From the IMG/VR virus record IMGVR_UViG_3300032323_003201, positions 8,062 to 72,061 of that record: 64,000 nt of DNA. One strand, 5' to 3'. This document shows positions 8,650 to 49,820 of the stretch, in pieces; position 1 is the first letter of the stretch, and each line of letters begins with the position of its first letter. This DNA is from a virus. The position numbers and the translations under genes are program-made. The notes under the pieces were generated by a model. It did no database searches and was not told the origin of the DNA. It was given only the letters and a program-made list of their open reading frames with translations.

Positions 8650-9000
8650 GCATGATCGAAAAGGGGGGGATAAGGTGAAAAAGGAGCAAAAAAGAGGCAG
8701 TTTTCTATCAAAAACCATGTGATTGAGCATGAAAACAGTCGTTTTTGGGTGCAAAAAAGGGGGGATAATTTGGCGTTTTTCATGTATTTGCCACCCCCCC
8801 TCCCCCCCCCACCCCCCATTTACATATCTTTCTATCATCTCTAAGTAGTTGAAAACACTACATATTTAATAATACTATATACATGGGGGGAGGGGGGGTA
8901 TTTTTATTTGAGATGAGAAATATTTTTTTATTTTTTTGTGCAGACAGATTTAGAAAAATATTTTTTTAGAAGAGGTATACACCCCCCACCCCCCCATCAT
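8650..9000. repeat. Left arm of a long imperfect inverted repeat (G/C-tract element)
   Basis: Reverse complement of 8802-9000 aligns closely with 49470-49671; patchy similarity extends to 8650 vs 49820. Non-coding, with C6-C9 and G6-G8 runs. Confidence 0.92.
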
Positions 9001-9121
9001 GTGAAACAAATAAATTAATGCTCTACATTCGATGAAATCAAGATATTGATAGCAATGGGGGGGGTATGCATATTTTAGAATGACTTTTTGCCTTGTGCTA
9101 CAATCCAAGCAAAGGAGACAC

Positions 9122-9431
9122 TATGCAAATGAAGATCAATACTGCCAGATACACAACCCTTATTCTTATTCTTTTAATCCTGTGCCTATACTTTCCCAAT
9201 GTGATGGCATGGGTTAGCACAGTAATCACAAGCATGATAGGTTGGCTGTTATTCACGACTAAGGAACAGACTAAAGCACAAGAAAAAGCAATAGAGGATC
9301 ATATCCATAGAGCGATTGAAATCCATGACAAGCTGGCAAGCATGGAAGCTCTCATGCAACATAAGATGGAAAAGGCACGACTTGACGCAAGGGATGAGGC
9401 AATCTCTAAGCTAGATGGTGAATGGAAATGA
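9122..9431 (+). CDS. Membrane protein with N-terminal TM and coiled coil (i-spanin-like)
   Basis: ATG after RBS AAGGAG; hydrophobic LILILLILCLYF...MIGWLLF followed by a charged helix; upstream of holin-like and SLT genes. Confidence 0.55.
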
Positions 9432-9787
9432 TCAGCCTCATCCTACAGCTTGGTCTTTGGGTGAATACGAATGGGGTAGAGCAGCATGTGCCTTGTCCCC
9501 TAATCTATGAGCAAGAGCAAAGGTTGCCTGTGGGGTGCATGGTGCTAAATCAAGGTGTATTATATTCACCCACACACTACATAGACACTAAAGTGAATGA
9601 GTCAGAGGATAAGGTTAAAATTAGTGCATTGGAGGAGCAAATTGCTTTCCTACAAGCAGAGTTAGTAAAGACTCAAAACCAATTAACAAAATGCCTTATT
9701 GAGCCAAAGCCAAGCACAACCCAGCCTTTTATCTATGGTGTGCTAGGTGGTGCGATTATTACAGGAGCGATATTATGGAACAAGTAA
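9422..9787 (+). CDS. Exported coiled-coil protein with C-terminal TM (spanin-like lysis accessory)
   Basis: Hydrophobic N-terminus, central coiled coil, C-terminal TM FIYGVLGGAIITGAILW. Confidence 0.5.
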   Translation: MEMISLILQLGLWVNTNGVEQHVPCPLIYEQEQRLPVGCMVLNQGVLYSPTHYIDTKVNESEDKVKISALEEQIAFLQAELVKTQNQLTKCLIEPKPSTTQPFIYGVLGGAIITGAILWNK

Positions 9788-10011
9788 CTTTAACCTATGC
9801 CACACTACTTGGCCTTGTAGGTCTTTTCTATACCTCTCTCAAAGAGAAGCAAGAGCAAGCCAAATCACTTGGGAAATTAGAAGAGAAGGTGGCTAGTTTA
9901 GAAGCCAAACAACAAACTTTACATGAATTAGTGGAAGCTCTACAAGAAACTAAAATAGCAGTGGCAAGACTTGAAACAAAGATTGACGCTTTACTAGGAC
10001 ATAGACAATAG
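9775..10011 (+). CDS. Holin-like small membrane protein
   Basis: One N-terminal TM plus a coiled coil ending VARLETKIDALL; lysis-cassette context. Confidence 0.5.
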   Translation: MEQVTLTYATLLGLVGLFYTSLKEKQEQAKSLGKLEEKVASLEAKQQTLHELVEALQETKIAVARLETKIDALLGHRQ

Positions 10012-10020
10012 GAAGGGAAG

Positions 10021-10623
10021 ATGATGGATCAGTACTCACTACTTGCATATAGTGCAAACGATGAAATTTTGGCAACAAAAATAACCTATGCACTTACTCG
10101 CTATTCTTCAATCTTAGAGCCAGATGACAAGAGCTTGATTTGGCGTTGGTCATCTATCATTAAAGAAATCTGTGAGCCTTTTCCCATCACTATTGCCTAC
10201 CACATGCCACTTCAACATTGCATTGACTTGTTTCAATTCGATTTAGGTATAAAGATAGTACATATCTCTGAAAATGAGTATTTTTATCCCCATCAAGTGA
10301 TAGCTCATAGAAAAATTACTAAGGGGAAGGGTGTTATAGATGATGAAGCAGAATTGATTTTGAGAGAGAGTATCCACAAGGCCAGAGTGACTTATTTGTC
10401 CCTTATAAATCGTGGTGTTGATCATCAAATTGCAAGCCTGTGCCTTCCTCAATCCATTTTTGTAGACTGCCACCTTCAAGGAGATATCCACACATGGTGT
10501 AGTTTCTTCCTTGCTCTCAAAGAAGATAAGCAAGAGTGGCAGTATATCAAAAAGCATGCAGAGGGAATACAAAAGCTCATCCAAGAGGTATTCCCCAAAA
10601 CAATGAAAGTGCTAAAGCTATGA
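10021..10623 (+). CDS. Degenerate ThyX-fold protein lacking catalytic motifs
   Basis: Aligns by eye with the ThyX at 62686-63450 (YLSLINRGVDHQIASLCLPQSIF vs YNWMLDQGICREQARVQLPVGMY; QEWQYIKKHAEGIQKLIQEVFP vs HAQAEIREFAQAILRLVTLAFP), but has no NExSxRY. Confidence 0.65.
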   Translation: MMDQYSLLAYSANDEILATKITYALTRYSSILEPDDKSLIWRWSSIIKEICEPFPITIAYHMPLQHCIDLFQFDLGIKIVHISENEYFYPHQVIAHRKITKGKGVIDDEAELILRESIHKARVTYLSLINRGVDHQIASLCLPQSIFVDCHLQGDIHTWCSFFLALKEDKQEWQYIKKHAEGIQKLIQEVFPKTMKVLKL

Positions 10624-11099
10624 CAGACAGTTTTATTTTATGTTGGTGGATCATGATGCAAGTTATTGCACCCACTCAAGATCCTGTATCACCAGCATAT
10701 AAAAAACAATTAGGTAAAACGATCATGGATAGGGTTGTTCAGTGCGAACAATTACATGACCATGCAATCAAGCATGATGTGAATAAATATCTTGTGCTTT
10801 CACTTGCCTACCATGAAAGTAAATTTGTTCGTAATGCAAAGAGTAGTAAGGGAGCTGTGGGAGCAATGCAAATCATGCCACAGTACAAGCCTTGTGCCAA
10901 ATGTAGTGATGCAGAGAATGGTGTGCTTATGCTTAGGAAAATGCTAGATAATCATGGTGGGGATGAGTGTAAGGCAATTGGCTTTTATGCCACTGGTAAG
11001 ACCTTGCCAAAGTGTGGGAGCTATGGGAAGAGTATCCAAGATTTTGCTACAGAGATATTTGATTATGCAGTACTCATGGGAATAGATGAGGGTTGCTAA
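10620..11099 (+). CDS. Lytic transglycosylase (SLT family), putative exported endolysin
   Basis: Catalytic YHES plus SSKGAVGAMQIMP motif; hydrophobic N-terminus; ATGA overlap with the upstream gene. Confidence 0.85.
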   Translation: MTDSFILCWWIMMQVIAPTQDPVSPAYKKQLGKTIMDRVVQCEQLHDHAIKHDVNKYLVLSLAYHESKFVRNAKSSKGAVGAMQIMPQYKPCAKCSDAENGVLMLRKMLDNHGGDECKAIGFYATGKTLPKCGSYGKSIQDFATEIFDYAVLMGIDEGC

Positions 11100-11565
11100 G
11101 ATGAAGGACAAGTTTTTAAAATTTAGAATTGCTCAGTGCCTACACCTTGCCACCATGTCCCCCTGTAGTAGGAGACAATTTGGTGCAGTGATTGTAAACC
11201 CCACCTCAAATTCGATTTTGGCAGAGGGGTACAATGGCACACCAAGAGGACACCAGCACACACTTTGTGGCACTAGCTCTTGCCTTCGTGATTGTGTGCA
11301 AAGTGGCACAAAGCTAGAAATTGGCTGTCACCATGCAGAGGCTAATGCTTTGATGAATGCACTAAGAAATCATGCTGACATTAGGGGTGCTGTCATAATC
11401 GTAAGTGGTGAGCCTTGCCTTATGTGTGCAAAATTGATCCATCATTCAGGTATAGAGAAGGTCTACACAATACAAGGCTCATACTCTGCCAAGGATGGTG
11501 TAGACTACTTAATAGAAAACAATGTGCCAGTGCTAAAGGTCAATGCACAAGGAGAATATTTATGA
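11086..11565 (+). CDS. dCMP deaminase (ComEB/deoxycytidylate deaminase family)
   Basis: SPCSRRQFGAVI, GYNGTP, HAEANA and PCLMC zinc motifs. Confidence 0.9.
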   Translation: MRVAKMKDKFLKFRIAQCLHLATMSPCSRRQFGAVIVNPTSNSILAEGYNGTPRGHQHTLCGTSSCLRDCVQSGTKLEIGCHHAEANALMNALRNHADIRGAVIIVSGEPCLMCAKLIHHSGIEKVYTIQGSYSAKDGVDYLIENNVPVLKVNAQGEYL

Positions 11566-13055
11566 GTGATGATTTACAAGTCTTTGCAAAGGCAGCACTT
11601 AACCTACTAAAGCAAGCCATGATAGAAAACCCAAGCGTTGACACAGAGGGGATTGCTAAGAGCTTGATTGAAAACTTGGGGGAAAAACCCACAGTCATGA
11701 GCAAGGAAATCAACCCTGCTGATATTGCAAATGTGGGGATGATACCACCTTTAGAGATGGGTCATCGTGGCACTTTTGGCTTAACCTTTGACACACTACA
11801 AGCCATGTCTCGTGTGCCTGTTATCTCTGCTGTGATTAACACAAGAATAAATCAAGTGTCAGAGTTTGCCAAGGCAGTCAATGAAGATGATGGTCTTGGC
11901 TTTCAAATTCGTCTCAAAGATCGTAAGGCACATGCAAGTGAAGATGATAAGCAAAATATCCTTGAGATTACAGAGTTTATAAAATCATGTGGGGATAATC
12001 GAATAACTTTTGAAACTGACTTTGAAGCCTTCCTTCGTATGCTCGTAAGAGACTCTCTCATTTATGACCAAGCCTGCTTTGAAATCGTTCGTAACCAAGA
12101 TGGCAAGGTCTGTGGCTTTCTCAATGTGGATAGTGCCACAATAAGAAGGTCAGCTCTCACAGAGCAAGAGCGATTAGATGGTAGAAGGTCTGCTGATGGT
12201 GTGCAATTTGTGCAGGTGATGAATAACCAAATTGTGGCTCAATACAAAGCACTAGATCTATGTTGGGGTATTCGTAGACCAAGATCAGATTTACGATTTA
12301 GAGGCTATGGCTTTCCAGAGCTTGAAGAGCTTGTTAAAGTCATCACTCATATTTGTAATGCAGAAATATTTAATGCCAACAATTTCACCAATGGCATTTC
12401 TGCAAGTGGGATTATCGCAGTTAAATCAAAGATGAATCCAACTCTATTCAAAGCTTTTAGGAAAGAGTTTTACTCAATGCTTACAGGTGCAAGCAATAGT
12501 AAAAGGACACCTCTTATTCAGCTTGATCCAAGTAATAACGAAGAGGTGCAAAGCATCAATCTAAGCAATACAAACAAGGAGATGGAATACCAAGAATGGT
12601 TGAATTATTTGCTCAAAATCACTTGTGCCATGTTCCAAATAGACCCTGCAGAAATTGGCTTTAATTTTGGTGTAGAGGGTCAATCAAGTGCCATCTTCTC
12701 TATGGGTGTCCAAGATCGTGCAATCCTATCTAAAGAAAAGGGATTGAGGCCACTACTTAGAGCAATAGAGAGCTGGATCAATAGATACATTATTGACCAA
12801 ATTGACCCTCGTTATGAGCTTACATTCATTGGTCTTGATAGTATCCCTAAAGATAAACAGCTTGAGATGGATCTAAAAAAGATGAGCTTTATGACTCTCA
12901 ATGAAATCAGAGCTAAGTATGATCTGCCACCACACCCAATGGGTGATAAAATTGGCAATCCACTTTTTAATCCAACAGAGCAAGCTCAAGTTGGGGAACA
13001 AGTAAATGCACCTGAACAGCCTATACAACCCTCTGAAGAAAATCCTACAGAATAA
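11562..13055 (+). CDS. Portal protein
   Basis: AVINTRINQV, LVRDSLIYDQACFEI, GYGFPELE, FQIDPAEIGF, KGLRPLL and TLNEIR motifs typical of phage portals; RBS AAGGAG before ATG at 11562. Confidence 0.9.
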   Translation: MSDDLQVFAKAALNLLKQAMIENPSVDTEGIAKSLIENLGEKPTVMSKEINPADIANVGMIPPLEMGHRGTFGLTFDTLQAMSRVPVISAVINTRINQVSEFAKAVNEDDGLGFQIRLKDRKAHASEDDKQNILEITEFIKSCGDNRITFETDFEAFLRMLVRDSLIYDQACFEIVRNQDGKVCGFLNVDSATIRRSALTEQERLDGRRSADGVQFVQVMNNQIVAQYKALDLCWGIRRPRSDLRFRGYGFPELEELVKVITHICNAEIFNANNFTNGISASGIIAVKSKMNPTLFKAFRKEFYSMLTGASNSKRTPLIQLDPSNNEEVQSINLSNTNKEMEYQEWLNYLLKITCAMFQIDPAEIGFNFGVEGQSSAIFSMGVQDRAILSKEKGLRPLLRAIESWINRYIIDQIDPRYELTFIGLDSIPKDKQLEMDLKKMSFMTLNEIRAKYDLPPHPMGDKIGNPLFNPTEQAQVGEQVNAPEQPIQPSEENPTE

Positions 13056-13060
13056 AAAAC

Positions 13061-13094
13061 TTGTACATATCCCTAGCTTATCGGACATGTACAA
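13061..13094 (+). promoter_or_regulatory. Intergenic inverted repeat/hairpin after portal
   Basis: TTGTACATATCC-N10-GGACATGTACAA (11/12 match); no U-tract follows. Confidence 0.45.
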
Positions 13095-13143
13095 TTCATC
13101 GTATCTAAAAAACTATTAACGAATAAACCAAAGGTTTTTTATT

Positions 13144-13533
13144 ATGGCTCAAAAGTTATCCTATACAGTGCCTGCAAAGGTTAGAGCAAATGCCAAGCGT
13201 GGATTAAAATTGCGTGCTGAGACAGGTGGCAAGGGTGGCCTCACAACACAACAAGCTGGCAAGCTAAAAATAGGAAGTGGGGTAGCTCGTGCCAACTCTC
13301 TTATTCATGGCAATGTTACCTATGACACCATCAAGAGAATGTATTCCTTTTTTTCTAGGCACAAGATTTACAAGGACAAAGGCTACCACAAGGATAGAAA
13401 AAGCAAGGCTTATATTAGCTGGCTGCTTTGGGGTGGTGATGCAGGTTTTTCTTGGTGCAAGCGAATAATTAGAGAGTATGAGTCATCTACTGAAAAAGGT
13501 GTCTTTTTAGATATCGTGCTACAATCACTATGA
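13144..13533 (+). CDS. Conserved basic phage head-associated protein
   Basis: AxxGLxLR...GVARA...TIKRMYSFFSRH...WLLWGGDAG pattern, which I recall from phage head modules; lies between portal and protease. Confidence 0.7.
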   Translation: MAQKLSYTVPAKVRANAKRGLKLRAETGGKGGLTTQQAGKLKIGSGVARANSLIHGNVTYDTIKRMYSFFSRHKIYKDKGYHKDRKSKAYISWLLWGGDAGFSWCKRIIREYESSTEKGVFLDIVLQSL

Positions 13534-14714
13534 AAAGAGGTGCTATGAATAAGAGTTATTTTTCAGCATGGACAAGCATTGATTTGTCAAAGGATGATAC
13601 AGCCAAGGCAGATGAAAAGCTTGGCTTTATCAAGGGTGTAGTATCATCTGAGCTTGAGGATCAAGCAGGGGATATCATCAAGCAAGATGGTCTTGATTGG
13701 ACATACTTCCTTGATAAAGGCTATTTCAATTGGGAGCATAAAGATGGGCCAGAAAACATACTTGGTTATCCTACCAAGATTTTAAAGGGTGAGTCAGATA
13801 CTTCGGTTGAAGGCTATCTTTTTCTTGATAGACCCAAAGCAAAAGATGCGTATGACATGGCTAAAATCCTCAAGGATGTGCAAGCTCCTCGCTCAATTGG
13901 TTTCTCTATTGAAGGCCAAGTTATTGAGCGTGATAAAGAAAATGAGAATATTATCACAAAAGCCAAAATCTTAAATGTAAGTGTAACAGCTCACCCATGC
14001 AACCCTGATGCCAAGATGATGGTTAAGGCTCTTGCAGATATGGAAGACTATATGAAAAAGAAAACGACTGTACAGCCAACACTTCTCAAAACAATTGAAG
14101 AAGACGAAGCAAAAAAGAAGGCAGAAGCAGAAGCAGCAATGGCACAAACTGAGGATGAAAAAAAGGCTTATTCATCAGACGATGATGCTACCAAATCCAC
14201 AACAGAGGATACTGCTAAAAATGACGACTCCAGCACAAAAGAAGATGATCAAGGATCTAAAGCAGACGATCAAGAAGCTCAAAAAGTAGCAGAAGACGAT
14301 GCTGAAAAAGGCATGGTATCAAAATCTGAAGATGATGATGATGATATTAACAAGGCTGAAGATGATGATGAAGATGATGAAGATGACTCACTAGATGATG
14401 ACTCTCTTGATGACTCTTCTCTAACAGATGATTTTTGGGATGATGCTGATCGTAAATATGTAGACGAAGCTTTTAGTGCATTGTGGACAATGTTAGGGTC
14501 ACTACAAGATCAACTCACTGCTCAGATCAAGACAAAGAGAGTAGCACAAAGACAAGCACTTGCTCAAAAGTCAATCAAGGATGCATCACCAGTATCTAGC
14601 AAAGATTTACTTGAGCGAATTGCCAAGCATTTTCCTACAATGACACTAGATCAACAAAAACAACTCACTCGCAAAAGTGCTGATATCATCAGAGAGTATT
14701 TTGTCAAGGATTAA
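13530..14714 (+). CDS. Prohead protease with acidic scaffold-like C-terminus
   Basis: DQAGDIIKQDGLDW, YFNWEH, GFSIEG and VTAHPCNPDA motifs; long D/E-rich tail. Confidence 0.85.
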   Translation: MKRGAMNKSYFSAWTSIDLSKDDTAKADEKLGFIKGVVSSELEDQAGDIIKQDGLDWTYFLDKGYFNWEHKDGPENILGYPTKILKGESDTSVEGYLFLDRPKAKDAYDMAKILKDVQAPRSIGFSIEGQVIERDKENENIITKAKILNVSVTAHPCNPDAKMMVKALADMEDYMKKKTTVQPTLLKTIEEDEAKKKAEAEAAMAQTEDEKKAYSSDDDATKSTTEDTAKNDDSSTKEDDQGSKADDQEAQKVAEDDAEKGMVSKSEDDDDDINKAEDDDEDDEDDSLDDDSLDDSSLTDDFWDDADRKYVDEAFSALWTMLGSLQDQLTAQIKTKRVAQRQALAQKSIKDASPVSSKDLLERIAKHFPTMTLDQQKQLTRKSADIIREYFVKD

Positions 14715-14717
14715 CAA

Positions 14718-15149
14718 ATGAAAAAACAGATGACCAAAGACGCAGTGGATCAATTTTTTACCACTCTCAAAAAGAGCATCCTTTCACAAGGAGATACTGT
14801 GAAGCAAGCCACCACTCTAGCCAAGTCTGCTGACAAGGCTCTAAATGACCAAAATGCAACCATCGCAGCATTGGCAAAGACCATTGAGATTTTGACCCAA
14901 AAGGTTGAAGCTCTTAGTCAACCTAAAGCACCAGCTATTCAAAAGTCTGTGACCCATGTTGCACCTGAAGCTCACCCATTAAATGGTACAGCGATTGCTC
15001 AAGAAGAAGATGCACCTACACTTATTCAAAAAGCATTTGATCTTTTGAAGGGTGCTGACAAGGCTAGACAATCTGAATTGACCAGAGCTATCTCTTTGCT
15101 CAATGTTGGTGGCAATCCCTCTGAAATCAAAAAGAATTACAAGTTGTAG
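14718..15149 (+). CDS. Scaffold-like/capsid-associated protein
   Basis: Helical coiled-coil ORF directly before the MCP; recurring KS/KA motifs. Confidence 0.55.
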   Translation: MKKQMTKDAVDQFFTTLKKSILSQGDTVKQATTLAKSADKALNDQNATIAALAKTIEILTQKVEALSQPKAPAIQKSVTHVAPEAHPLNGTAIAQEEDAPTLIQKAFDLLKGADKARQSELTRAISLLNVGGNPSEIKKNYKL

Positions 15150-15158
15150 GAGACACAC

Positions 15159-16655: not shown

Positions 16656-16682
16656 GATAGTAAATTAAAGAGGCATCTCATC

Positions 16683-16994: not shown

Positions 16995-17017
16995 ACCCAC
17001 CACTAAGTGGAGTATCT

Positions 17018-17983: not shown

Positions 17984-17996
17984 AAAGAGATAGACC

Positions 17997-41880: not shown

Positions 41881-42357
41881 TTATCCTATGAAATGAAAAA
41901 TCGCTATGTTTGTCCAAAGCAGAAGGTAGAAAGGAATGCTCTCAAAGTCAAGTAGATCTACATAATCAAAACCATAGCTTGAGAAACGATTGCTGTCTAG
42001 GTTGTATCTTAGAGAGTTGTCCCCAGTGAGCCTTTGGACACAAATCCAATCATAGAGCCACTTGTATTCACAAATCTTTGCTTTGATGGAGCATTCAAGG
42101 CCAAGTAGTGAAACAAATAAAAAGGTAAAAATTAGAAAGTGCTGCTTATCACTTGGTAAGAATAGGCTTAGGATAACCAAGGTTGTGGCAATCATCTTCA
42201 TATACAATCTTTTACTTTGCTCTCGTTCGATTAGATTGAAGGCAAAATCTAGCTCTTTGTGGAATGCCTCTTGATCCATATATGCATCAGAGAGCTGATC
42301 ATCTTGCTCTAAAATTTCTTGAAGCTCATCAATTGTGCTTTTTTCTTCACTCATCAT
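41881..42357 (-). CDS. Hypothetical membrane protein
   Basis: Two adjacent TM segments plus a C-terminal hydrophobic segment. Confidence 0.6.
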   Translation of the reverse strand: MMSEEKSTIDELQEILEQDDQLSDAYMDQEAFHKELDFAFNLIEREQSKRLYMKMIATTLVILSLFLPSDKQHFLIFTFLFVSLLGLECSIKAKICEYKWLYDWICVQRLTGDNSLRYNLDSNRFSSYGFDYVDLLDFESIPFYLLLWTNIAIFHFIG

Positions 42358-42415
42358 AAATCCTTTGTGTGTGGGTGGCACATATAAACACACACTCACA
42401 AGCAATTTTTAAAAA

Positions 42416-43006
42416 TTATTTTTTATGCGTAATACAGCCTTGTTCATCTGGCTGTGCAGAGTAATCTCTTTTTTTTACCTGTTCAAGCTTGGTGGCCACT
42501 GCTGTTCTTACATCAATATCGCAAAGTGCTGCAAGGTGCATAAGCAAAATGTATAGGTCAGCAAATTCTTTTTCTTGTGCCTCTGTCCCCACATCTGTTT
42601 CTTCAAATTCCTTGATTTCATTTTTGAGATGGTTGATAACACCAGAGATGGAAGCTCTACCATCAAATTGAGTTTGCCACTGCCACACTTCCTTGGTGAT
42701 TGAGTCAAGGCTTGGGATAAGAGGCAAGTAAAACCCTACATTTTCACTATCAAGAGCTTTGAGCATAGGTAAATCCTCATCTGTTGCACCCATCTGTTCC
42801 CAATTGTACATGGGGGTGATTGTGCCACTTGGATTTAACTTGATACCTTCCAAAGCATTGTCATATTTTGCCTTGAGAAGAAGAGGCTCTTGATTGCATG
42901 CAGTGAAATGCTCAACAATTTGCAATTTCCTAGCCAAGTTATTTGCGACTAGGTAGTCAATTAAATATTTTTTTACAGTATGGGGTACAGCCACTTCAAT
43001 TTTCAT
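42416..43006 (-). CDS. MazG-fold NTP pyrophosphohydrolase (DUF550-like C-terminal domain)
   Basis: W...F......G.I.HLKNEIKE...EFADLYIL...K....KKRDY..PD motif. Confidence 0.7.
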   Translation of the reverse strand: MKIEVAVPHTVKKYLIDYLVANNLARKLQIVEHFTACNQEPLLLKAKYDNALEGIKLNPSGTITPMYNWEQMGATDEDLPMLKALDSENVGFYLPLIPSLDSITKEVWQWQTQFDGRASISGVINHLKNEIKEFEETDVGTEAQEKEFADLYILLMHLAALCDIDVRTAVATKLEQVKKRDYSAQPDEQGCITHKK

Positions 43007-43110
43007 TTTTTTGATCCTTCTTGGATATGTATATGTCTATATAGGTATGACATAACAATAAGCATAAGCATAAGGATATATATATAAAAATAGTAAAAAT
43101 TTCAGCTTAT

Positions 43111-43698
43111 TTATTTATGTGTGATAAAACCTTTAGCACCTATTGTATGACCCAATTCATTTCTTACAGGGTCAACTTGGAGCAAATCACCACGCTCAGG
43201 GATTGCCATAAAAACCATTGCAGACACAATGTAATACACACCTTCTTCATATGGTGGAAGGTCAACAACCACATCAAAAGGCTCTTTATAGGTCACTTTG
43301 GTTTTAATGATTGGTAAATAAAGGCCACTGACATCCACAGGAGCTACAACGAAGCAATGAGTTTTTACATCATCTTGCACTGCCTTACCACCCTTGTTTG
43401 TCATTCTTGCCACAAGACCAGATGGCTTGATTGTGCATAGAATTTCTTGTGTAATTTCATCCATCATATCGATAGGGTGGGGGGTTGCATTGTAGATACA
43501 TCTTGTATCCTGCTGTACTTCAAGAAGCTTTAATTGGTCTGCTGTGGCAAGCTTTCTAACTTCAATCCCATCTTCAACCTCTCTATGATTTTCAGAGAAG
43601 GTTAAAAAGGTCATGCGATTAATCAAGTCTTGATTTTCTTTGATTTTGGTATCAATCAAGGCTCTGATGGTTTTTAAATAAGATCTAAAATCACTCAT
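43111..43698 (-). CDS. Conserved phage hypothetical protein
   Basis: NATPHPI...PSG.VAR...LPPYEEGVYYIVS...RGDLL motif; start could also be 43710. Confidence 0.65.
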   Translation of the reverse strand: MSDFRSYLKTIRALIDTKIKENQDLINRMTFLTFSENHREVEDGIEVRKLATADQLKLLEVQQDTRCIYNATPHPIDMMDEITQEILCTIKPSGLVARMTNKGGKAVQDDVKTHCFVVAPVDVSGLYLPIIKTKVTYKEPFDVVVDLPPYEEGVYYIVSAMVFMAIPERGDLLQVDPVRNELGHTIGAKGFITHK

Positions 43699-43816
43699 TT
43701 GTGTATCCATGTGGGTGGGGGTTTGCTTTGAAACCAAAGATAACAAAAATATTTTAGATTGTATAGATAATTGTTTATATTTTATTTTTTATGAAAGATT
43801 TACTTATTCCGATTTA

Positions 43817-44764
43817 CTACCAACCCCACTCACCTGTCATACCACTTGCACTATAATCTGTGACTACACCCTCAAAAAAGTTTTTGAAAGACACCCCATT
43901 GACAATCCAATCAAGCCAAGGTAGTGGGTTTTTTTCAATATGATAAATAGGTGTGCAATTTAATTGGTGCAATCGTCTATCTGCTAGATACCTAATAAAT
44001 GTTTTAACAGCGACCTTGGTTAAGCTCTCCATCACTTGGATATCCCCAAAGATTAAATCAATGACTTGATCTTCTAGCTGCACTGCTGACTCAAACAGTC
44101 TCTTGATATCACTCTCACTTACCTTGACTTGGGTTTCTTCTACATAGGTATGGTAAAGCTTAGTCATTGCCTCAACATGTAAGCTCTCGTCTTTAATTGA
44201 CCATTCCACAACCTCACACATACCTTTCATTTTCCCATGCTGTTGGAAGTGTAAGAGCATGACAAATGCACTGAACAAGCTCATCCCTTCATTGCACACT
44301 GCTTGTGCCAGTGCATAGGCTGTTTGTGTGCTATCACTTGGGTTGATTGCTTGCATGTTGTGAATTTTATCTAGCATTGGCTTGTGACTAAGAAAATAAG
44401 CATACTCACTTTCATCAAGGCCAAGTGTGTCATTGAGTAGTGCATAAGCTCTCTGGTGTGTGCCTTCACGATTAGCAAAGGATAACAACATGTTGCGAAT
44501 TTCATTGTTCCTAAAAATAGGCAAGAATTGGTCAACATAGTTATCTGCTACAGCCACATCTGACTGAGTAAAAATTCTTAGGATTTGTGTGATAAAAAGC
44601 TTTTCAGTATCACTAAGACCCTTGCTTTTCCACTGCTTTACATCCTCCTGCAATTTTGCCTCCCATGTCCCCCAATGTGCCTTTTCATGACTCTCTGCAT
44701 ATTGCATTGCCCAAGGATAGTGGAAGGGTTTATATGTTTTGCTCTCTTTTAATAAATTACTCAT
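43817..44764 (-). CDS. nrdB: Ribonucleotide reductase class Ia, beta subunit
   Basis: DVAV, REGTHQRAY (radical Tyr), EGMSLFSAF, DESLH and NFFE motifs. Confidence 0.95.
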   Translation of the reverse strand: MSNLLKESKTYKPFHYPWAMQYAESHEKAHWGTWEAKLQEDVKQWKSKGLSDTEKLFITQILRIFTQSDVAVADNYVDQFLPIFRNNEIRNMLLSFANREGTHQRAYALLNDTLGLDESEYAYFLSHKPMLDKIHNMQAINPSDSTQTAYALAQAVCNEGMSLFSAFVMLLHFQQHGKMKGMCEVVEWSIKDESLHVEAMTKLYHTYVEETQVKVSESDIKRLFESAVQLEDQVIDLIFGDIQVMESLTKVAVKTFIRYLADRRLHQLNCTPIYHIEKNPLPWLDWIVNGVSFKNFFEGVVTDYSASGMTGEWGW

Positions 44765-44768
44765 TTTA

Positions 44769-46487
44769 TTATCCTTGACATGCGATACATTCATCAAGCT
44801 TTACGACTTGCTTGATAACTGGCTTACTGATTTTTTCTGCTTGTGTGCCTGCTGTTGTGCGAAGGTAGTACACAGATTTTAAGCCTTCCTTCCATGCTTG
44901 AAGGTGGCAGGCATTAACATACGATTTATCACTGCCTGAAGGGAAGAATAAATTAACAGATTGACCTTGGCAAATGTGTGCTTGTCTATCCCCAGCATGA
45001 GAAATCACCCACCTTTGATCAATTTCATATGCAGTCTTAAACACTTGCTTTTGTTGGTAGTTGAGCATTGGAAGGTGTTGTACTGACCCTTCATGAATTA
45101 TGATTGATTGCCACACATCTTCATACTCTGACTCAGTCAATCCTTTGAGCCTTAAAATCTCATCAAGATATTTATTCTTAGTTAGGAATGTGCCAGCTCG
45201 TGTGCGATGGGTGAAAGCATTGGCAACCCAAGGCTCAATGGATGGTGAGGTATCCAAAATGATGGATGAATTTGAGTTGGGAGCTACTGCTAACAAGTGT
45301 GCATTGCGTCTACATGTGCCAACACCATCAGGATACTCACCACGCTCAATCGCTAGGATTTCACTTTGAGCAATTGCCTTCTCTTGGATCAGCTTAAATA
45401 TTTTTTTATTGAGACCTTTGGCAACCACTGACTCAAAAGCCACATTCTTTCTTTGTAGGTATGAATGAAATCCCATCGTGCCAAGACCCAAGGATCTTTC
45501 TTGCCTTGCACCATGTATGGCATTGGCAAGTTGGGGGGGTGCATGGTCAATGAAATATTGAAGCACATTGTCCAAAAATGTTATGCAATCCTCAACAATG
45601 CTTGTATCTTTCCAATCATCAAAATATTCTAGGTTTAGGCTAGATAGACAACATACAGCTGACCTATCTTTGGCAGTTGGCAAAAAAATCTCGGAACAAA
45701 GATTTGAGCTATGTATTTGTAAGCCTTTATCCTTTAAAGCCTGTGGTAAAGCTCGATTAGCTGTGTCCTTGAACATAAGATATGGCTCACCTGTTCTAAA
45801 TCTCACCTCTAAAATTCGTTGCCACAATTCTCGTGCTTGGATTGTTTCCCTTGTTTCCTTTGTGTGTGGGTCAATCAAATCCCAACTCGTATTATCTATG
45901 ACAGCTGTCATGAAAGCATCACTTATGCAGATTGCATTGTGCAAATTGAAAGCCTTCCTATTGGTATCACCACCTGTAGGTAATCGTAAATTGAGAAATT
46001 CAATGATATCAGGATGGTCAACATCTAAGTATGCTGCATAGCTCGCTCTTCTAGTCTTGCCTTGTCTATATGCCTCAACATCACTATCAACAGTTTTGAT
46101 AAAAGGAATTGGCCCAGGTGCTTTTTGGGATACAGCTCTCACATGTCCCCAATAGCCACCTACACCACCACCTAGCACACCAAGCCACCTATTTTCAGTA
46201 GTGTGAGAGATGAGACCATCAAGGTCATCACTTACATAGGTGAGGTAGCAAGAGATTGGCAAGCCAGCTTTAACCTTCTCTTCTTCTTTCAATCTTGCAT
46301 TGGATAAAATAGGGGATGAGAACATAAACCACCCCTTTTTTACATAGCTATGGATACGACCAGCTAAATCCAAATCACCTGCACAATAAGCTAGGCTTGC
46401 TCGCTCAAAAGCCTCATCAATATTTTTTTCATATGGTAGTAAATAGTAGCTCGTCAATAGTGACAAAGCATGATCAGAAAATTGCAT
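44769..46487 (-). CDS. nrdA: Ribonucleotide reductase class I, alpha subunit (no ATP cone)
   Basis: LPISCY, SNLCSEI, VCCLSSLNL, APNSNSS, YYLRT and C-terminal CIACQG. Confidence 0.95.
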   Translation of the reverse strand: MQFSDHALSLLTSYYLLPYEKNIDEAFERASLAYCAGDLDLAGRIHSYVKKGWFMFSSPILSNARLKEEEKVKAGLPISCYLTYVSDDLDGLISHTTENRWLGVLGGGVGGYWGHVRAVSQKAPGPIPFIKTVDSDVEAYRQGKTRRASYAAYLDVDHPDIIEFLNLRLPTGGDTNRKAFNLHNAICISDAFMTAVIDNTSWDLIDPHTKETRETIQARELWQRILEVRFRTGEPYLMFKDTANRALPQALKDKGLQIHSSNLCSEIFLPTAKDRSAVCCLSSLNLEYFDDWKDTSIVEDCITFLDNVLQYFIDHAPPQLANAIHGARQERSLGLGTMGFHSYLQRKNVAFESVVAKGLNKKIFKLIQEKAIAQSEILAIERGEYPDGVGTCRRNAHLLAVAPNSNSSIILDTSPSIEPWVANAFTHRTRAGTFLTKNKYLDEILRLKGLTESEYEDVWQSIIIHEGSVQHLPMLNYQQKQVFKTAYEIDQRWVISHAGDRQAHICQGQSVNLFFPSGSDKSYVNACHLQAWKEGLKSVYYLRTTAGTQAEKISKPVIKQVVKLDECIACQG

Positions 46488-46572
46488 TTCATGTCTCCTT
46501 TGAATGGTTTTTCACTATATCCAAAACACAAGAAGCATGATGAAATTTTGAAACTCGTATCTCAGTCGTATT

Positions 46573-47421
46573 TCATTTATGACAAGCTAGACACACCTTA
46601 ACAGATCCATAAACATCATCTGTATCAAGGGAGCATGATCCACCCTGTAGTAAATTTGTGCGTCTTTTCTTTGCTTGCTTGTCTTGATATTGTTGCTTTC
46701 TCTTCTCATAGTCAGCTTTGATTTGAGCTACCCTCTCTGGTTGTGCTAGTTGCTCAAGGCTTTCATTCTCTGACCAAGTGAAAAAATAGCCATCCTTGAT
46801 ACTACTCTTTTCATAATCGATAGCCTCTTGAAAGGCTTGGGGGTGTCTCTCAAGTAACCCAACCCATTCAATCTTTCTTTGGAAAAAGCAAAAGGTGCAT
46901 CCACTTCTACTTCTCCATTCATAGTATTGTGGTAAACCAAGACCAGCATCACTAAGTAGGCTCATGACTCTTGGCTTATCAATGCCATTTTCCCTAAGAG
47001 GGAGCTTAATGATTAGGTTTGAGTCTTTTGATTGGTATCCCTCTCTAAACTCTTCATCTGCACGAATAGCCACATAAGAATAAACTGTATAGCCTTCTTC
47101 TAAGAATGCCTGCACCCAATCTTCAAAGGGTTTCAATTTCATCTTTATGGTGCACCATCGATCAGTGGCACTTGGTAAATAATTACCATGTTGTCTAAGC
47201 CAAAAGTCAAAATCTCTCTTAGAGTCAAGTCTATTGATCTTCTTTCTAAGATAACCCTCTAGCCTATTTAGAAAATCATAGGTTTCAGGCAATTCTTTAC
47301 CTGTATCTGTGAAGAAATACTCAATATCAATATCAGGGTGATATGTTCTCATGTAGACTGCAAGGCCTGCACTATCCTTACCACCAGATATACCAAGCAC
47401 ATGTTTTTCTTTTTTAAGCAT
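46573..47421 (-). CDS. PAPS-reductase-family PP-loop protein, SspD-like
   Basis: GISGGKDS PP-loop; FTDTGKELPE, RWCT, SRSGCTFCFFQRKIEW and terminal CLACHK. From memory this resembles the SspD/BREX-4 subfamily rather than CysH. Confidence 0.8.
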   Translation of the reverse strand: MLKKEKHVLGISGGKDSAGLAVYMRTYHPDIDIEYFFTDTGKELPETYDFLNRLEGYLRKKINRLDSKRDFDFWLRQHGNYLPSATDRWCTIKMKLKPFEDWVQAFLEEGYTVYSYVAIRADEEFREGYQSKDSNLIIKLPLRENGIDKPRVMSLLSDAGLGLPQYYEWRSRSGCTFCFFQRKIEWVGLLERHPQAFQEAIDYEKSSIKDGYFFTWSENESLEQLAQPERVAQIKADYEKRKQQYQDKQAKKRRTNLLQGGSCSLDTDDVYGSVKVCLACHK

Positions 47422-47423
47422 GA

Positions 47424-48506
47424 CTAAGCTCTTCTTGCCATCACGATCATTTGTGTTTTCTCATCACTGGATTTAAGAAGCAATGGTGTCATCTCGCTTA
47501 GTGAGTGATAGGCTAGGTCAGTATTTGTAAAGCCATGAAACAGGTAGTCTAGTTGAAATCTCATGGTATAAATTGGGTCAGATGCTAGGGTGTCATATTG
47601 GTACACCTCTTGAGCCTTGACAGTACAGCTCATTCTAAAGTTATTAAACTCATCTAGGGAAATGAGAATGGTTGAGTCACCCCCACCCACCTTTCTACAT
47701 TGACCAAGTGCCTTCTTCATGTCCTCTGTCACCTTATATTCAAAGCTATGCTTTTTAGGTAGCACAGCATGAATATCAGGATAATCCTCCACAAGCAAAC
47801 GAATAGACAAGCTCCGATGCACATCAGAGAAAACAAGACTTGTGCCTTGCTTAAAGATAGCAGGGTAAGAGGTGGATGATAGGAAGCTCAAGATATGAGA
47901 TACAGCAGAGCTAGGGATAAGAGCATTGAAATGAAGATCCTTATTCAATTTCTTATTTAGATTTAGGAAGGTAGCAGCATGGCCATTGGTTGAGTACATG
48001 CTTAATTTACCATCATCACAAACAAGATACACACTACATAAGCGAATGCGACTCTCGTCCTTACTGACAAATGGAATAGCTAGAGATAGGCAATGAGATA
48101 GCTCCTTAACCTCTTCATCTGTCCAAACAACCATGCCTTCAGGTGCTAAGGGTGTCTCAATGGTTGGGTAATCTTGAGCTGGCAAGGCTTGCACGAAGAT
48201 TGTGACTTTACCACATAGAGCCACATTCTTTTCTAAATCAAAATCCACAGTGCCAGAGCATACAGAAATAATTTGTTGGATTGACTCATGGTGAATAAGA
48301 ATTGTGCCATCCTTATGATCAGTTGATGCAAGTGTAAGTGTTGAGCAAATTGTCATTTGTAGGTCAGTGGCAGACACCAAAAGATCATCCCCCACGATTT
48401 GGAATTTGATCATGGCAAGGTATTCAGGTTGTTTAACAAGCTTGGCAAGTGAAACAACAGCCTTGAGCTGTGTTAAGTGCTTAGTAATATCAAGTGAGAA
48501 TTTCAA
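47424..48506 (-). CDS. dnaN: DNA polymerase III beta sliding clamp
   Basis: SATDL, LPAQDYP, SKDESR, STNGH, RLL..DYPD..AVLP, F...YL and C-terminal IVM motifs; 360 aa; TTG start. Confidence 0.8.
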   Translation of the reverse strand: MKFSLDITKHLTQLKAVVSLAKLVKQPEYLAMIKFQIVGDDLLVSATDLQMTICSTLTLASTDHKDGTILIHHESIQQIISVCSGTVDFDLEKNVALCGKVTIFVQALPAQDYPTIETPLAPEGMVVWTDEEVKELSHCLSLAIPFVSKDESRIRLCSVYLVCDDGKLSMYSTNGHAATFLNLNKKLNKDLHFNALIPSSAVSHILSFLSSTSYPAIFKQGTSLVFSDVHRSLSIRLLVEDYPDIHAVLPKKHSFEYKVTEDMKKALGQCRKVGGGDSTILISLDEFNNFRMSCTVKAQEVYQYDTLASDPIYTMRFQLDYLFHGFTNTDLAYHSLSEMTPLLLKSSDEKTQMIVMARRA

Positions 48507-48566
48507 GTGTTTTGTCCTTTCATAAAAAGTGAGACACTATATAACAAAAAAATTCAAGCTTGTTGT

Positions 48567-49100
48567 TCAAATTTGATCTAGCACCTTAATGAAATCAGGC
48601 AAGAGGTTAGCAAGCATGGGGATTGGTTTACCTACTGCAAGCAAGTCAGCCTCTGTGAAGCTCTTCTTTTCATAATCCCTAAATTTGATCCATGGACAAA
48701 TAAACCACTTATTATCTAGTCTCACAAGCACAACTGCAATTTGTCCCCAAGATACTCGTCTATCAAGTTGTTCCCACTGGTAAGGGTCAATCGCACTCTT
48801 TTGGATTCGTAAGCCTTCTCTTGATTTGCATTCTAAATAGCCAGCTTTCCCACTAGGTAGCCAAATCTCAAAATCACAGCCAGCTTTTTCACTATATACT
48901 GCATGAAAGCAATTTTTGCCACTACCTACTCTTTTATAAGGCTCATGTCTCTTACACAGCTCTGCAATCCCATGCTGTAGGTAGAATGCACCAATCTCTA
49001 AGATTTGTTCCTCTGCTGTCTTACCTTGTCTTTGTGCACGCAAGCCTGCTGCACTTTTCTCTGTCAATTGCCTTGGCATAAACCCTCTTCTCTTATTCAT
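48567..49100 (-). CDS. RecU-like Holliday junction resolvase (PD-(D/E)xK)
   Basis: GKTAEEQI...Y...GIA...K...P; CDF; GYLECKS; Q...L motifs. Confidence 0.75.
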   Translation of the reverse strand: MNKRRGFMPRQLTEKSAAGLRAQRQGKTAEEQILEIGAFYLQHGIAELCKRHEPYKRVGSGKNCFHAVYSEKAGCDFEIWLPSGKAGYLECKSREGLRIQKSAIDPYQWEQLDRRVSWGQIAVVLVRLDNKWFICPWIKFRDYEKKSFTEADLLAVGKPIPMLANLLPDFIKVLDQI

Positions 49101-49469
49101 AGCTTGTCCTTTCAAATCGTTGAACATGATCTAAGGATACAATAAATTGACTATATACAGGCTGGCTATTTGAGCAGAGATTAAAAATAATGCCTTTAAT
49201 CTTTTAGGGGGGGATAGGTATCTTTGGGGGGGTGCTTTTGACTAAAAAGGCAGTGAATTTGACTAAAAAAGGCATGGAAAGCTTAAAATTTAGGGTCAAA
49301 AAGAGGGGGGTAAATTGACCATTTTGGCAAAAATCAGAGCCTTGCTCAAAAACAGACACCCCCCCCATGCAAAAATCATGTGTGATTGAGCGAATAGCAC
49401 AGTATAGATAAACCCTTGAATTACAATATATTTTACCATGTGATGGACATTAACTTTATCATGGGGGGT

Positions 49470-49820
49470 ATGATGGGGGGGGTGGGGGTGTGTATACCTC
49501 TTCTAAAAAAATATTTTTCTAAATATGACTACACAAAAAAATAAAAAAATATTTCTCATCATCAAATAAAAATACCCCCCCCTCCCCCCATGTATACAGT
49601 GTTATTAAATAATCAATGTTTTCAACTACTTAGAGATGATAGAAAGATATGTAAATGGGGGGTGGGGGGGGTACTCCCTCATGAAAAGTGGTAAAAGTGC
49701 CAAATTATCCCCCCTTTTTTGACCCTAAAAATGACAGTTTTTTGATGAAATTTGATACTTTTTGATAGATTTCCATCACTTTTTGAGCCTTTTTTAGCCT
49801 TATCCCCCCCTTTTTTGACT
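49470..49820. repeat. Right arm of the long imperfect inverted repeat (G/C-tract element; candidate origin region)
   Basis: Reverse complement of 8650-9000, inside an ~830-bp divergent intergenic gap that has further G/C tracts at 49207-49366 and 49851-49860. Confidence 0.92.

What the first reader, a model, noticed from the sequence alone, without database searches (positions are those of the whole stretch)
8650..49820. ~350-bp G/C-tract inverted repeat with arms about 40.5 kb apart, bracketing the lysis, virion and metabolism block
Seen: the two largest non-coding gaps (about 8500-9120 and 49130-49970) share an inverted core. CCCCCCATTTACATATCTTTCTATCATCTCTAAGTAGTTGAAAACA...TTTAGAAAAATATTTTTTTAGAAGAGGTATAC (8812-8980) is the reverse complement of 49492-49662. 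Spacers have drifted while the G/C tracts and A/T blocks are kept, which points to selection on a cis element rather than a recent duplication. Inference, three options: (i) twin oppositely oriented replication origins; (ii) recombination sites that flip a ~40-kb segment and give two genome isomers; (iii) if the full genome is near 80 kb, diametrically placed arms resembling the yeast 2-micron inversion-amplification layout. A serine recombinase (54274), an RHH-like protein (49974) and a RecU-like resolvase (48567) all lie near the right arm. I do not know of this architecture in a myovirus.
Basis: partly seen in the sequence, partly recalled or inferred. Interest (0 to 1): 0.85.

Follow-up and report, generated by a model that had tools for sequence, protein, structure and literature searches.

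The report
Phage half-genome flanked by inverted repeats
Two inverted copies of a ~350-base non-coding element split this 72-kb uncultured freshwater phage genome into two parts, and close relatives carry those parts joined in either orientation, a layout recently described in unrelated phages of cyanobacteria.

Summary
The inverted repeat is real: 350 nt, 84% identical, E 6e-87. Its arms lie in the two largest gaps of a 72,061-bp phage record whose ends repeat. The arms hold 23 of the genome's 38 G/C runs of 6 or more.

- **Conserved in place, not in sequence.** Relative G001 has its own pair at the same two sites.
- **Kept alike within a genome.** The 194-nt core is 94% identical between G000's arms but 69-70% to the same arm in relative L035.
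- **Both orientations seen.** In one clade 97-99.9% identical, contigs join the enclosed ~35-40-kb block both ways: G002 and L018 one way, L022 and L037 the other.

Reader option (ii), a flippable segment, is the best reading at about 0.65. The rest of the doubt is assembler error, because no raw reads were available. Twin origins and 2-micron-style amplification gain no support.

The layout is already published for Anabaena myophages A-1(L), N-1 and Elbi, with which this phage shares no detectable homology. This lineage does carry a conserved Gin-type invertase that Nostoc phage A1 lacks.

Earlier notes of this scan report similar layouts on other DNA.

The parts
8659..9085 (+). Left arm of the inverted repeat. 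It lies between the last tail-fibre gene and the first gene of the enclosed block.
   Evidence: Pairs I1-I4 and I23; one BLAST hit of 350 nt at 83.7%.
49338..49814 (-). Right arm, in the divergent gap between the resolvase-like gene and the 67-aa gene. It has the same outer-to-inner order as the left arm.
8752..8774 (+). Innermost iteron-like element, 23 nt, identical in both arms. The only other copy in the window is at 49699-49721 on the minus strand. It is a candidate protein-binding or crossover site.
   Evidence: 23/23 identical while the next 27 nt are 8/27. 2 matches at up to 3 mismatches in the window, 0 in 100 shuffles. G001 has a 33-nt exact counterpart at the same place. In the G002 clade the two junction types converge at the matching element.
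8803..8996 (+). Core cassette, left copy. Its order is a C block, 67 nt of A/T-rich DNA, a G block (G6AG7), 83 nt of A/T-rich DNA with an internal palindrome, then a C block.
   Evidence: 183/194 identical to the right copy, against 134/194 and 135/192 to the orthologous arm of L035. 55-nt exact run at 8803-8857. Predicted C-block:G-block pairing, z -3.6.
49477..49671 (-). Core cassette, right copy.
   Evidence: Pairs I1 and I2; fold z -4.0.
49289..49325 (+). Extra inverted copy of the iteron on the inner side of the right core. With 49693-49729 it brackets that core, 367 nt apart.
   Evidence: Pair I5, 37 nt, 81%. G001 has the same feature at 38525-38556 / 38982-39013, 96.9%.
9086..49337 (.). 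Enclosed block of 40,252 nt, 56% of the genome. Virion genes are on the + strand up to about 36 kb. An accessory replication and nucleotide block is on the - strand from 49127 down to about 36 kb.
   Evidence: Virion genes: portal; head protease, major head protein, tail sheath and baseplate. Minus-strand block: resolvase-like gene, clamp-like gene, PAPS-reductase-like gene and both ribonucleotide reductase subunits. In the G002 clade two contigs of 35.2 and 35.6 kb are exactly this block.
54274..54873 (+). Gin/Hin-family serine DNA invertase, 199 aa, 4.5 kb outside the right arm. It is the candidate flipping enzyme.
   Evidence: Resolvase and HTH_7 domains. Gin structures 4m6f/3uj3 at E 3.5e-50, against 1.6e-28 for gamma-delta resolvase. 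phrog_125 'DNA invertase' at E 2.7e-70. Conserved in G001 (67.7% over 186 aa) and G002 (68.7% over 195 aa); no hit in Nostoc phage A1.
48567..49127 (-). First gene inside the block at the right arm: a RecU-like Holliday-junction-resolvase relative.
   Evidence: phrog_843 at E 4.6e-18. Pfam RecU at 20.9 bits, below the cut-off of 25. A profile against solved RecU structures reaches only E 0.14.
49974..50177 (+). First gene outside the right arm: a conserved 67-aa protein, possibly DNA-binding. Its fold is unconfirmed.
   Evidence: Homologues at the same place in L035 (92%), G001 (55%) and the G002 clade (56%). No family hit. The model is all-helical with pLDDT 87. 0 fold matches at E <= 0.001.
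9123..9431 (+). First gene inside the block at the left arm, function unknown. An AAGGAG motif sits a few bases before its ATG.
   Evidence: Four relatives' contigs start 56-67 nt before its homologue.
3848..8497 (+). Last gene outside the left arm: a repeat-rich tail-fibre protein. It ends 161 nt before the arm, so a flip does not change its reading frame.
   Evidence: Tail-fibre PHROG families; ORF list.

Best explanation
The two arms are inverted copies of a non-coding control cassette. They bound a ~40-kb block holding the virion genes plus an accessory replication and nucleotide module.

Recombination between the arms flips that block relative to the ~31-kb remainder. The remainder holds early genes, DNA methylases, the invertase, primase-helicase, DNA polymerase and tail fibres. 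The lineage therefore exists as two genome isomers.

**Shown**
- The repeat itself.
- Its conservation at the same two sites in three clades, with sequence that is not conserved between clades.
- Core identity that is much higher within a genome than between genomes, which means the arms exchange sequence.
- Both junction types in contigs 97-99.9% identical.

**Inferred**
- That the flip happens within populations.
- The enzyme. I split this about evenly between two options. One is homologous recombination or gene conversion in the 194-nt core. The other is the conserved Gin-type invertase acting at the 23-33-nt element shared exactly by both arms.
- That the cassette, through its C-block:G-block pairing followed by a T run and its A/T-rich DNA, insulates each enclosed operon. 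That would leave either orientation viable.
For: 1. **The repeat is real.** 350 nt, 83.7%, E 5.8e-87.
2. **G001 has its own pair.** G001 is a 72,735-bp relative about 76% identical in DNA. It has its own 381-nt pair (87.4%) at the same two junctions. BLAST with G000's arm finds no arm in G001, and only 39-nt G-tract hits in 2 of the 5 relatives' records searched.
3. **Concerted evolution.** The core is 183/194 between G000's arms, against 134/194 and 135/192 to the orthologous arm of L035. G001 shows the same mosaic of an exact iteron plus a 97-100% core.
4. **Opposite orientations.**
   - G002: 8 of 15 HSPs of at least 300 nt run + against G000's outer part. The other 7 run - against the enclosed block. 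Tail fibre, arm and resolvase gene are adjacent.
   - Against G001 the split is the mirror image, 10 and 9 of 19.
   - G000 against G001 is collinear in 21 of 21 HSPs.
   - L018 has the same junction as G002 (98.1% over 5.8 kb).
   - L022 (99.94% and 97.9% to G002) and L037 (97.3% and 98.3%) have the G000-type junction.
5. **The junction types converge at the innermost iteron.** The two junction types differ outward of it and agree inward of it.
6. **Assemblies break at the arms.**
   - 7 of 14 related contigs that reach the resolvase-side arm end in it.
   - All 4 fragment contigs that reach the other arm start at its last C block.
   - Two contigs are exactly the enclosed block.
7. **A candidate enzyme.** A Gin-type invertase is conserved in all three long genomes. 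One search shows no other long inverted pair that brackets a gene segment.
8. **One suggestive contig.** In run X1, a possible source sample, a 5,409-nt contig joins 30 letters of the right arm's outer flank and a right-type outer arm to the left core and genes up to 10093.
9. **Precedent.** The same behaviour was verified by PCR, Sanger sequencing and read mapping in Anabaena myophages (bioRxiv 10.64898/2026.02.14.705889, section 9 read).
Against: - **No raw reads.** All runs were Logan contigs built at k=31. That is shorter than the 55-nt exact run shared by the arms, so the X1 contig can be a chimeric path. Its switch point lies inside that very run.
- **Few flipped contigs.** The flipped junction is seen in only 2 contigs, both in one clade. 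In that clade the second arm is never assembled, so I cannot show the arms differ enough to exclude an arbitrary assembler path. Among pass-through contigs of that clade the split is 2:2, which a random-path artefact would also give.
- **Both terminally repeated genomes have the same orientation** (G000 and G001).
- **The arms are only 84-87% identical,** which is poor substrate for homologous recombination.
- **The iteron is an odd invertase site.** It has weak dyad symmetry and occurs in several copies per arm, which suits a regulator or initiator site better than a 26-bp invertase site.
- **A recalled hix half-site is not enriched:** 18 matches against 10.6 +/- 3.3 expected.
- **The phrase 'no other long inverted pair' rests on partial output.** displays 25 of its 52 inverted pairs, so it covers only the 25 longest.
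Confidence: 0.65

Rival explanations
1. The arms are a duplicated, fixed control region, for example terminator plus promoter or operator sites for one phage regulator. It heads both enclosed, converging operons. The block never flips, and the 'flipped' contigs are arbitrary assembler paths through the repeat.
For: - Both arms face the enclosed genes the same way.
- Several iteron copies per arm suggest a binding protein.
- Both terminally repeated genomes share one orientation.
- Assemblies break at the arms whether or not a flip occurs.
- In run X8 the k=31 contig graph is the plain two-in, two-out pattern of a repeat (records 25-28).
Against: - Two contigs from different records show the same flipped junction.
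- Fixed copies would not explain 94% core identity within a genome against 69-70% between orthologous arms, unless gene conversion is added, and that is itself recombination between the arms.
- Promoter-like sites are no more frequent than in shuffles (3 against 3.0, and 4 against 3.9). No terminator-like site is found by the simple scan.
Confidence: 0.2
2. The arms are twin, oppositely oriented replication origins made of iterons plus A/T-rich unwinding DNA clamped by G/C blocks.
For: Iteron-like repeats, two A/T-rich blocks and strong local structure potential (z -3.6 and -4.0) in each arm. The right arm lies at the cumulative GC-skew minimum.
Against: - Skew stays positive across the left arm (0.035, 0.049, 0.083), so only one arm has an inflection.
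- That inflection coincides with the switch of coding strand. The maximum at about 36 kb is simply the point where genes converge.
- No initiator gene is identified next to the arms.
- This rival is not exclusive of the flip.
Confidence: 0.08
3. A 2-micron-like amplification device: the invertase flips one replication fork relative to the other during theta replication, giving double rolling-circle copying.
For: Inverted repeats splitting a circular map into two arcs, with a recombinase gene nearby.
Against: - No origin has been mapped.
- The enzyme is a serine invertase, not a FLP-type tyrosine recombinase.
- Nothing in the data bears on fork direction.
- The arcs are 40.3 and 30.8 kb.
Confidence: 0.03

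Closest known systems
Invertible ~30-kb region of Anabaena/Nostoc myophages A-1(L), N-1, Elbi, A-Lf14, A-Alj1 and A-Hlh1 (PMC8297451, passage read; bioRxiv 10.64898/2026.02.14.705889, abstract, sections 7-9 and passages read)
   Same: - Genomes of about 65-72 kb.
- Two non-coding inverted repeats of a few hundred nt at conserved places.
- Repeat sequences that are not conserved between related phages.
- An enclosed block of tens of kb found in either orientation regardless of relatedness.
   Different: - No detectable homology: 0 tblastx hits of at least 50 aa at E <= 1e-8 between G000 and Nostoc phage A1. The capsid and portal here are distantly SPO1-like.
- A1's arms are 717 nt and 98.5% identical, with one run of 6 or more G/C letters in each. 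The arms here are about 350-380 nt, 84-87% identical, mosaic, and packed with G/C blocks.
- This lineage has a Gin-type invertase and A1 has none. The preprint's text has 0 occurrences of 'invertase'.
- Co-existence of isomers in one population is proven there and not here.
Gin/Hin/Cin/Pin DNA-invertase switches (Mu G segment, P1 C segment, Salmonella H segment)
   Same: The enzyme here is a close relative of Gin in sequence (E 3.5e-50 over residues 1-180). The arms are in inverted orientation.
   Different: - Known segments are about 1-5 kb (about 1 kb for Hin, PMC3798978 passage; the other sizes are recalled). They switch a promoter or tail-fibre tips.
- Here the block is 35-40 kb and the tail-fibre frame ends before the arm.
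- No 26-bp dyad site, enhancer or Fis dependence has been shown.
Burkholderia jumbo phage Matilda 'flip-flop' terminal segments (bioRxiv 10.64898/2026.10.21.760668, abstract and passages read)
   Same: Segments bounded by inverted repeats and present in both orientations. Homologous recombination is proposed as the cause.
   Different: Matilda has a linear 267-kb genome with terminal segments of 1.3 and 25 kb and repeats of 1.5 and 18 kb. Here two internal arms of about 0.4 kb sit in a 72-kb genome.
Plastid inverted-repeat flip-flop, herpesvirus L/S isomers and the yeast 2-micron plasmid (recalled; plastid papers seen in the search listing only)
   Same: Two unique regions separated by inverted repeats, giving equimolar or mixed isomers.
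   Different: Those repeats are kilobases long, nearly identical and mostly coding. 2-micron uses FLP. None has G/C-block cassettes.
Campylobacter group II phage CP21 modules separated by long repeat regions (PMC4546147, search listing only)
   Same: Repeat regions at module borders, linked to rearranged module order.
   Different: Not examined beyond the title and the start of the abstract. Genome size and lineage differ.

Membership tests
Inverted-repeat-bounded phage genome isomerism (A-1(L)/Elbi type) | A pair of non-coding inverted repeats of several hundred nt enclosing tens of kb | tested here: met
   350 nt at 83.7%, enclosing 40,252 nt.
Inverted-repeat-bounded phage genome isomerism (A-1(L)/Elbi type) | Repeats at the same places in relatives, with little sequence conservation between relatives | tested here: met
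   G001 has its own 381-nt pair at the same junctions. G000's arm finds only 39-nt G-tract hits in 2 of 5 relatives' records.
Inverted-repeat-bounded phage genome isomerism (A-1(L)/Elbi type) | Enclosed block in opposite orientations among close relatives | tested here: met
   G002 and L018 against L022 and L037, at 97-99.9% identity. Caveat: these are metagenome assemblies.
Inverted-repeat-bounded phage genome isomerism (A-1(L)/Elbi type) | Both isomers present in one population, shown at read or PCR level | tested here: inconclusive
   One k=31 contig in run X1 has the alternative junction, but it can be chimeric. No raw reads were on offer.
Inverted-repeat-bounded phage genome isomerism (A-1(L)/Elbi type) | Common descent with the A-1(L)/N-1/Elbi cluster | tested here: not met
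   0 tblastx hits of at least 50 aa at E <= 1e-8 against Nostoc phage A1. The layout is therefore analogous, not homologous.
Gin/Hin DNA-invertase system | Small serine recombinase of the invertase subfamily (catalytic domain plus C-terminal HTH) | tested here: met
   The N terminus reads YARVSTDEQ, aligned with Gin's catalytic-serine region.
Gin/Hin DNA-invertase system | Two short (~26-bp) dyad-symmetric crossover sites in inverted orientation | tested here: inconclusive
   A 23-nt exact element occurs once in each arm, inverted, and nowhere else in the window. Its dyad symmetry is weak by eye. A recalled hix half-site is not enriched.
Gin/Hin DNA-invertase system | Recombinational enhancer and host Fis dependence | not testable with these tools
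   The host is unknown and there is no assay.
Iteron-type replication origin | Iterons and an A/T-rich unwinding element beside an initiator gene, with a skew inflection | tested here: inconclusive
   Iterons and A/T blocks are present. No initiator is identified. Skew inflects at the right arm only, where gene strand also changes.
2-micron-type inversion amplification | FLP-type tyrosine recombinase acting on inverted repeats, with an origin near one of them | tested here: not met
   The recombinase is a serine invertase. No origin is mapped.

The most novel reading that the evidence does not exclude
A virulent-type myovirus uses a Gin-family invertase, so far known only for flipping segments of a few kb, to invert 56% of its genome. 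Crossover would occur at the 23-33-nt element that each genome keeps identical in both arms. The G/C-block cassettes would insulate the enclosed operons so that both isomers are viable. On this reading it is a programmed, genome-scale switch and not passive recombination between repeats.
Probability: 0.25. Interest if true: 0.75.

Novelty: new member of a known kind. Interest (0 to 1): 0.5.

Why it matters
If the flip is real, half-genome isomerism bounded by short inverted repeats is not peculiar to one cyanophage cluster. It would be a layout reached independently by unrelated tailed phages.

That matters for viromics. Contigs break at or mis-join across such arms, and completeness tools can be misled: G000 scores 49 and G001 scores 100, although both records have 123-bp end repeats.

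This lineage also offers what the cyanophage work lacked, a conserved candidate enzyme and a short exact site. The question of a dedicated recombinase versus general recombination therefore becomes testable with a two-plasmid assay.

The G/C-block cassette that is kept alike between the arms is unexplained in its own right.

Tried and rejected
**Searches that found nothing**
- The arm against 50,697 phage records with blastn: no match.
- Exact-word scans of viral contigs. A G000 core word gave 0 hits. A G002-clade core word hit only the 5 resolvase-side contigs already in hand. A word from the other arm's inner flank hit only the 3 contigs that start there. So no fragment contig spans the lysis-side arm.
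- The search for related loci with single proteins next to the arms: nothing.
- Genome contigs with the resolvase and capsid alignments: nothing. The host stays unknown.
- tblastn of the resolvase-like protein against phages: no match.

**Tests of what the arms might encode or contain**
- Rfam on the left arm: only microRNA-model hits far below their cut-offs, best 27 bits against 139.7. I rejected a known RNA gene.
- Sigma-70 promoter and terminator scans: not above shuffles.
- A hix-like half-site, typed from recall: 18 matches against 10.6 expected, 3 of them in the arms. Not convincing.
- A conserved ORF in the arms: rejected. The ORFs at 8602-8838 (78 aa) and 49679-49870 (63 aa) are both on the minus strand of an inverted repeat, so they are not homologous.

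**Other checks**
- More distant relatives, with resolvase 45-48% identical (8 contigs, L039-L046): 0 of 8 have G/C-block arms upstream. At most two runs of 6-7 C occur per contig. The cassette is specific to the G000/G001/G002 group.
- The 67-aa protein: no family hit, an all-helical model, and 0 Foldseek matches at E <= 0.001. Several weak rows (E 3-9) are ribbon-helix-helix proteins. RHH is neither confirmed nor excluded.
- Read laying: parts of the stretch without cover in X5 and X7, and the small-share runs X12-X20, carry no weight.
- Ends of a transposon, or terminal repeats of a linear genome: rejected. G000 and G001 read through both arms into unique DNA on both sides.
- Supplementary Table 6 of the cyanophage preprint lists five further phages with repeat-flanked regions. 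It could name a relative of this lineage.

Full report
**1.
The repeat finder on the window returns five collinear inverted pairs between 8659-9085 and 49338-49814, at 71-91%. Self-BLAST of the whole genome merges them into one 350-nt hit at 83.7%, E 5.8e-87.

The window is bases 8062-72061 of a 72,061-bp virus record that IMG/VR classes as having direct terminal repeats. The two ends share 123 bp exactly. I read that as the overlap of a circular assembly path, which is an inference.

The arms sit in the two largest gaps of the window. They hold 23 of the 38 runs of 6 or more G or C in the genome. They enclose 40,252 nt and leave about 30.8 kb outside.

**2. Anatomy of an arm.**
Read from outside to inside, each arm has these parts:
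- G-tract iterons.
- A 23-nt element that is identical in both arms and occurs nowhere else in the window.
- About 27 nt that do not align (8/27).
- A 194-nt core made of a C block, 67 nt of A/T-rich DNA, G6AG7, 83 nt of A/T-rich DNA with an inner palindrome, and a second C block. It is 183/194 identical between arms.
- A diverged leader to the first enclosed gene.

The longest exact run shared by the arms is 55 nt. Both arms face their enclosed gene the same way. As single strands the C and G blocks pair, with z -3.6 and -4.0 against shuffles.

No Rfam family, no excess of promoter-like sites and no conserved ORF was found. In the right gap a further inverted iteron copy lies inside the core, so that core is itself bracketed by a 37-nt inverted pair (I5). 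G001 shows the same feature.

**3. Gene content.**
- **Enclosed block, + strand:** small unknown genes, a ThyX-like protein, portal, head protease, major head protein, sheath and baseplate.
- **Enclosed block, - strand, starting at the right arm:** a RecU-like resolvase relative, a clamp-like protein, a PAPS-reductase-like protein and both ribonucleotide reductase subunits.
- **Outside, almost all on the + strand:**
  - a conserved 67-aa protein
  - two HsdM-type methylases
  - a 2-deoxyribosyltransferase-like protein
  - Dam
  - the invertase
  - a 1,166-aa primase-helicase
  - ThyX (on the - strand)
  - DNA polymerase A
  - a PD-(D/E)XK nuclease
  - an SNF2-like helicase
  - the tail fibres

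**4. Relatives.**
Capsid and resolvase queries brought in 21 viral-contig loci, and the resolvase alignment brought in 12 metagenome loci.

G001 (72,735 bp, ends also repeat by 123 bp) is collinear with G000 in 21 of 21 HSPs of at least 300 nt. It has its own inverted pair, 381 nt at 87.4%, at the same two junctions. G000's arm does not find G001's by BLAST.

The core of G000's right arm is 94% identical to G000's left arm but 69% to the orthologous arm of the nearer relative L035. G001 shows the same mosaic of an exact iteron and a 97-100% core. The arms of one genome therefore exchange sequence, or are re-copied, faster than lineages split.

**5. Both orientations.**
G002 is a 63,017-bp linear contig. 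It matches G000's outer part in the same sense in 8 HSPs and the enclosed block in the opposite sense in 7 HSPs. Its order is tail fibre, arm, resolvase gene. Against G001 the pattern is the mirror image.
- L018 has the same junction as G002.
- L022 and L037 are 97-99.9% identical to G002 on both sides. They instead join the 67-aa-gene side to the resolvase gene, as in G000.
- In the alignment the two junction types differ outward of the innermost iteron and agree inward of it.

So within one clade at about 98% identity, 2 contigs show one isomer and 2 the other. G000, G001 and L035 show the G000 type.

**6. Why I stop short of certainty.**
- Assemblies break at the arms. 7 of 14 contigs that reach the resolvase-side arm end in it. 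All 4 fragments that reach the other arm begin at its last C block. Two contigs of 35.2 and 35.6 kb are exactly the enclosed block. A repeat alone explains this.
- In the G002 clade no contig covers the second arm. I cannot show that its arms differ enough to force a unique path.
- The only read-level tool gave Logan contigs built at k=31.
  - In X8 the graph is the plain two-in, two-out pattern of a repeat.
  - In X1, a possible source sample, a 5,409-nt contig carries the right arm's outer flank. Its 30 displayed letters equal the reverse complement of window 49815-49844.
  - That contig also carries right-type differences up to 8802, and then runs into the left core and genes up to 10093.
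  - This is the alternative junction, but its switch lies in the 55-nt exact run, where a k=31 chimera would also switch.
- Earlier notes of this scan on other genomes warn of the same artefact.

**7. Mechanism.**
The invertase is far closer to Gin (E 3.5e-50) than to gamma-delta resolvase (1.6e-28). It matches the phage 'DNA invertase' family at E 2.7e-70. It is conserved in G001 and G002 at 68-69%.

Among the 25 longest of the 52 inverted pairs that one search reports, none other than the arms brackets a gene segment.
- **For a site-specific crossover:** the exact 23-33-nt element at the same place in each genome, and the convergence point in the G002 clade.
- **For homologous exchange:** the concerted evolution of the core, which a reciprocal site-specific crossover cannot produce, together with the resolvase-like and PD-(D/E)XK nuclease genes.

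I cannot separate the two. GC skew follows gene direction and does not mark the left arm, so twin origins are unsupported.

**8. What is known.**
- **Elbi.** The announcement (PMC8297451, passage read) reports a 29,932-bp inversion flanked by 504-bp inverted repeats. Repeats lie at the same places in A-1 and N-1 with no substantial similarity between them.
- **The 2026 preprint** (10.64898/2026.02.14.705889; abstract, sections 7-9 and passages read) shows both isomers co-existing by PCR, Sanger sequencing and read mapping. It leaves the mechanism open.
- **Matilda.** A second 2026 preprint on the jumbo phage Matilda describes flip-flop terminal segments (abstract and passages read).

I fetched Nostoc phage A1. 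Its arms are 717 nt at 98.5%. It shares no tblastx hit of at least 50 aa at E <= 1e-8 with G000 and has no invertase.

The present case is therefore another, unrelated lineage with a known layout. It is distinguished by short mosaic G/C-block arms and a Gin-type invertase. The supplements of the preprint were not seen.

**9. Verdict.**
- Observation: confirmed.
- Reader option (ii): best supported, confidence 0.65.
- Options (i) and (iii): unsupported.
- Novelty: new member of a known kind.
- Interest: 0.5.

Noticed in passing
L036:1-1850: One G002-clade contig has a ~1.4-kb stretch with open reading frames between the arm core and the resolvase gene. A duplicated 113-nt copy of the resolvase leader (99%) sits in front of it.
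   Followed up: partly
window 8891; L022 and G002-clade arms: Homopolymer lengths in the arms differ between strains and samples. Run X8 has +G and +GG at 8891, and L022 has G8 where five other contigs have G7. This could be hypermutable tracts or sequencing error.
   Followed up: no
window 23641-23684, 36629-36656, 38127-38170, 39745-39788, 58078-58105, 63522-63565: A ~28-44-nt A/T palindrome-like word (families D14 and D20; pairs I10 and I18) recurs in intergenic places on both strands. It also recurs at genome 1990-2077. It is probably a promoter or terminator word.
   Followed up: no
window 795-8497: The two large tail-fibre genes are built of many diverged internal repeats with periods of 75, 162, 282 and 42 nt. 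One repeat unit recurs in the baseplate-side fibre gene at 33742-33820.
   Followed up: no
window 50913-56191: Two HsdM-type N6 methylases, a Dam methylase and a nucleoside 2-deoxyribosyltransferase-like gene surround the invertase. No specificity or restriction subunit was seen among the ORFs scanned. A PAPS-reductase-like gene sits in the replication block at 46573-47421.
   Followed up: partly
window 10021-10623: A 200-aa ORF matches only the C-terminal half of the ThyX family (E 7e-7). A full ThyX is at 62686-63534.
   Followed up: no
G000 and G001 whole records: Both records have 123-bp end repeats and similar length and gene order, yet the listed completeness is 49 for G000 and 100 for G001.
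   Followed up: no
window 49289-49729; G001 38525-39013: The right-arm core alone is bracketed by a short inverted iteron pair, 37 nt at 81% here and 32 nt at 96.9% in G001. In principle this could allow a local ~400-bp flip of the core. No evidence either way.
   Followed up: no
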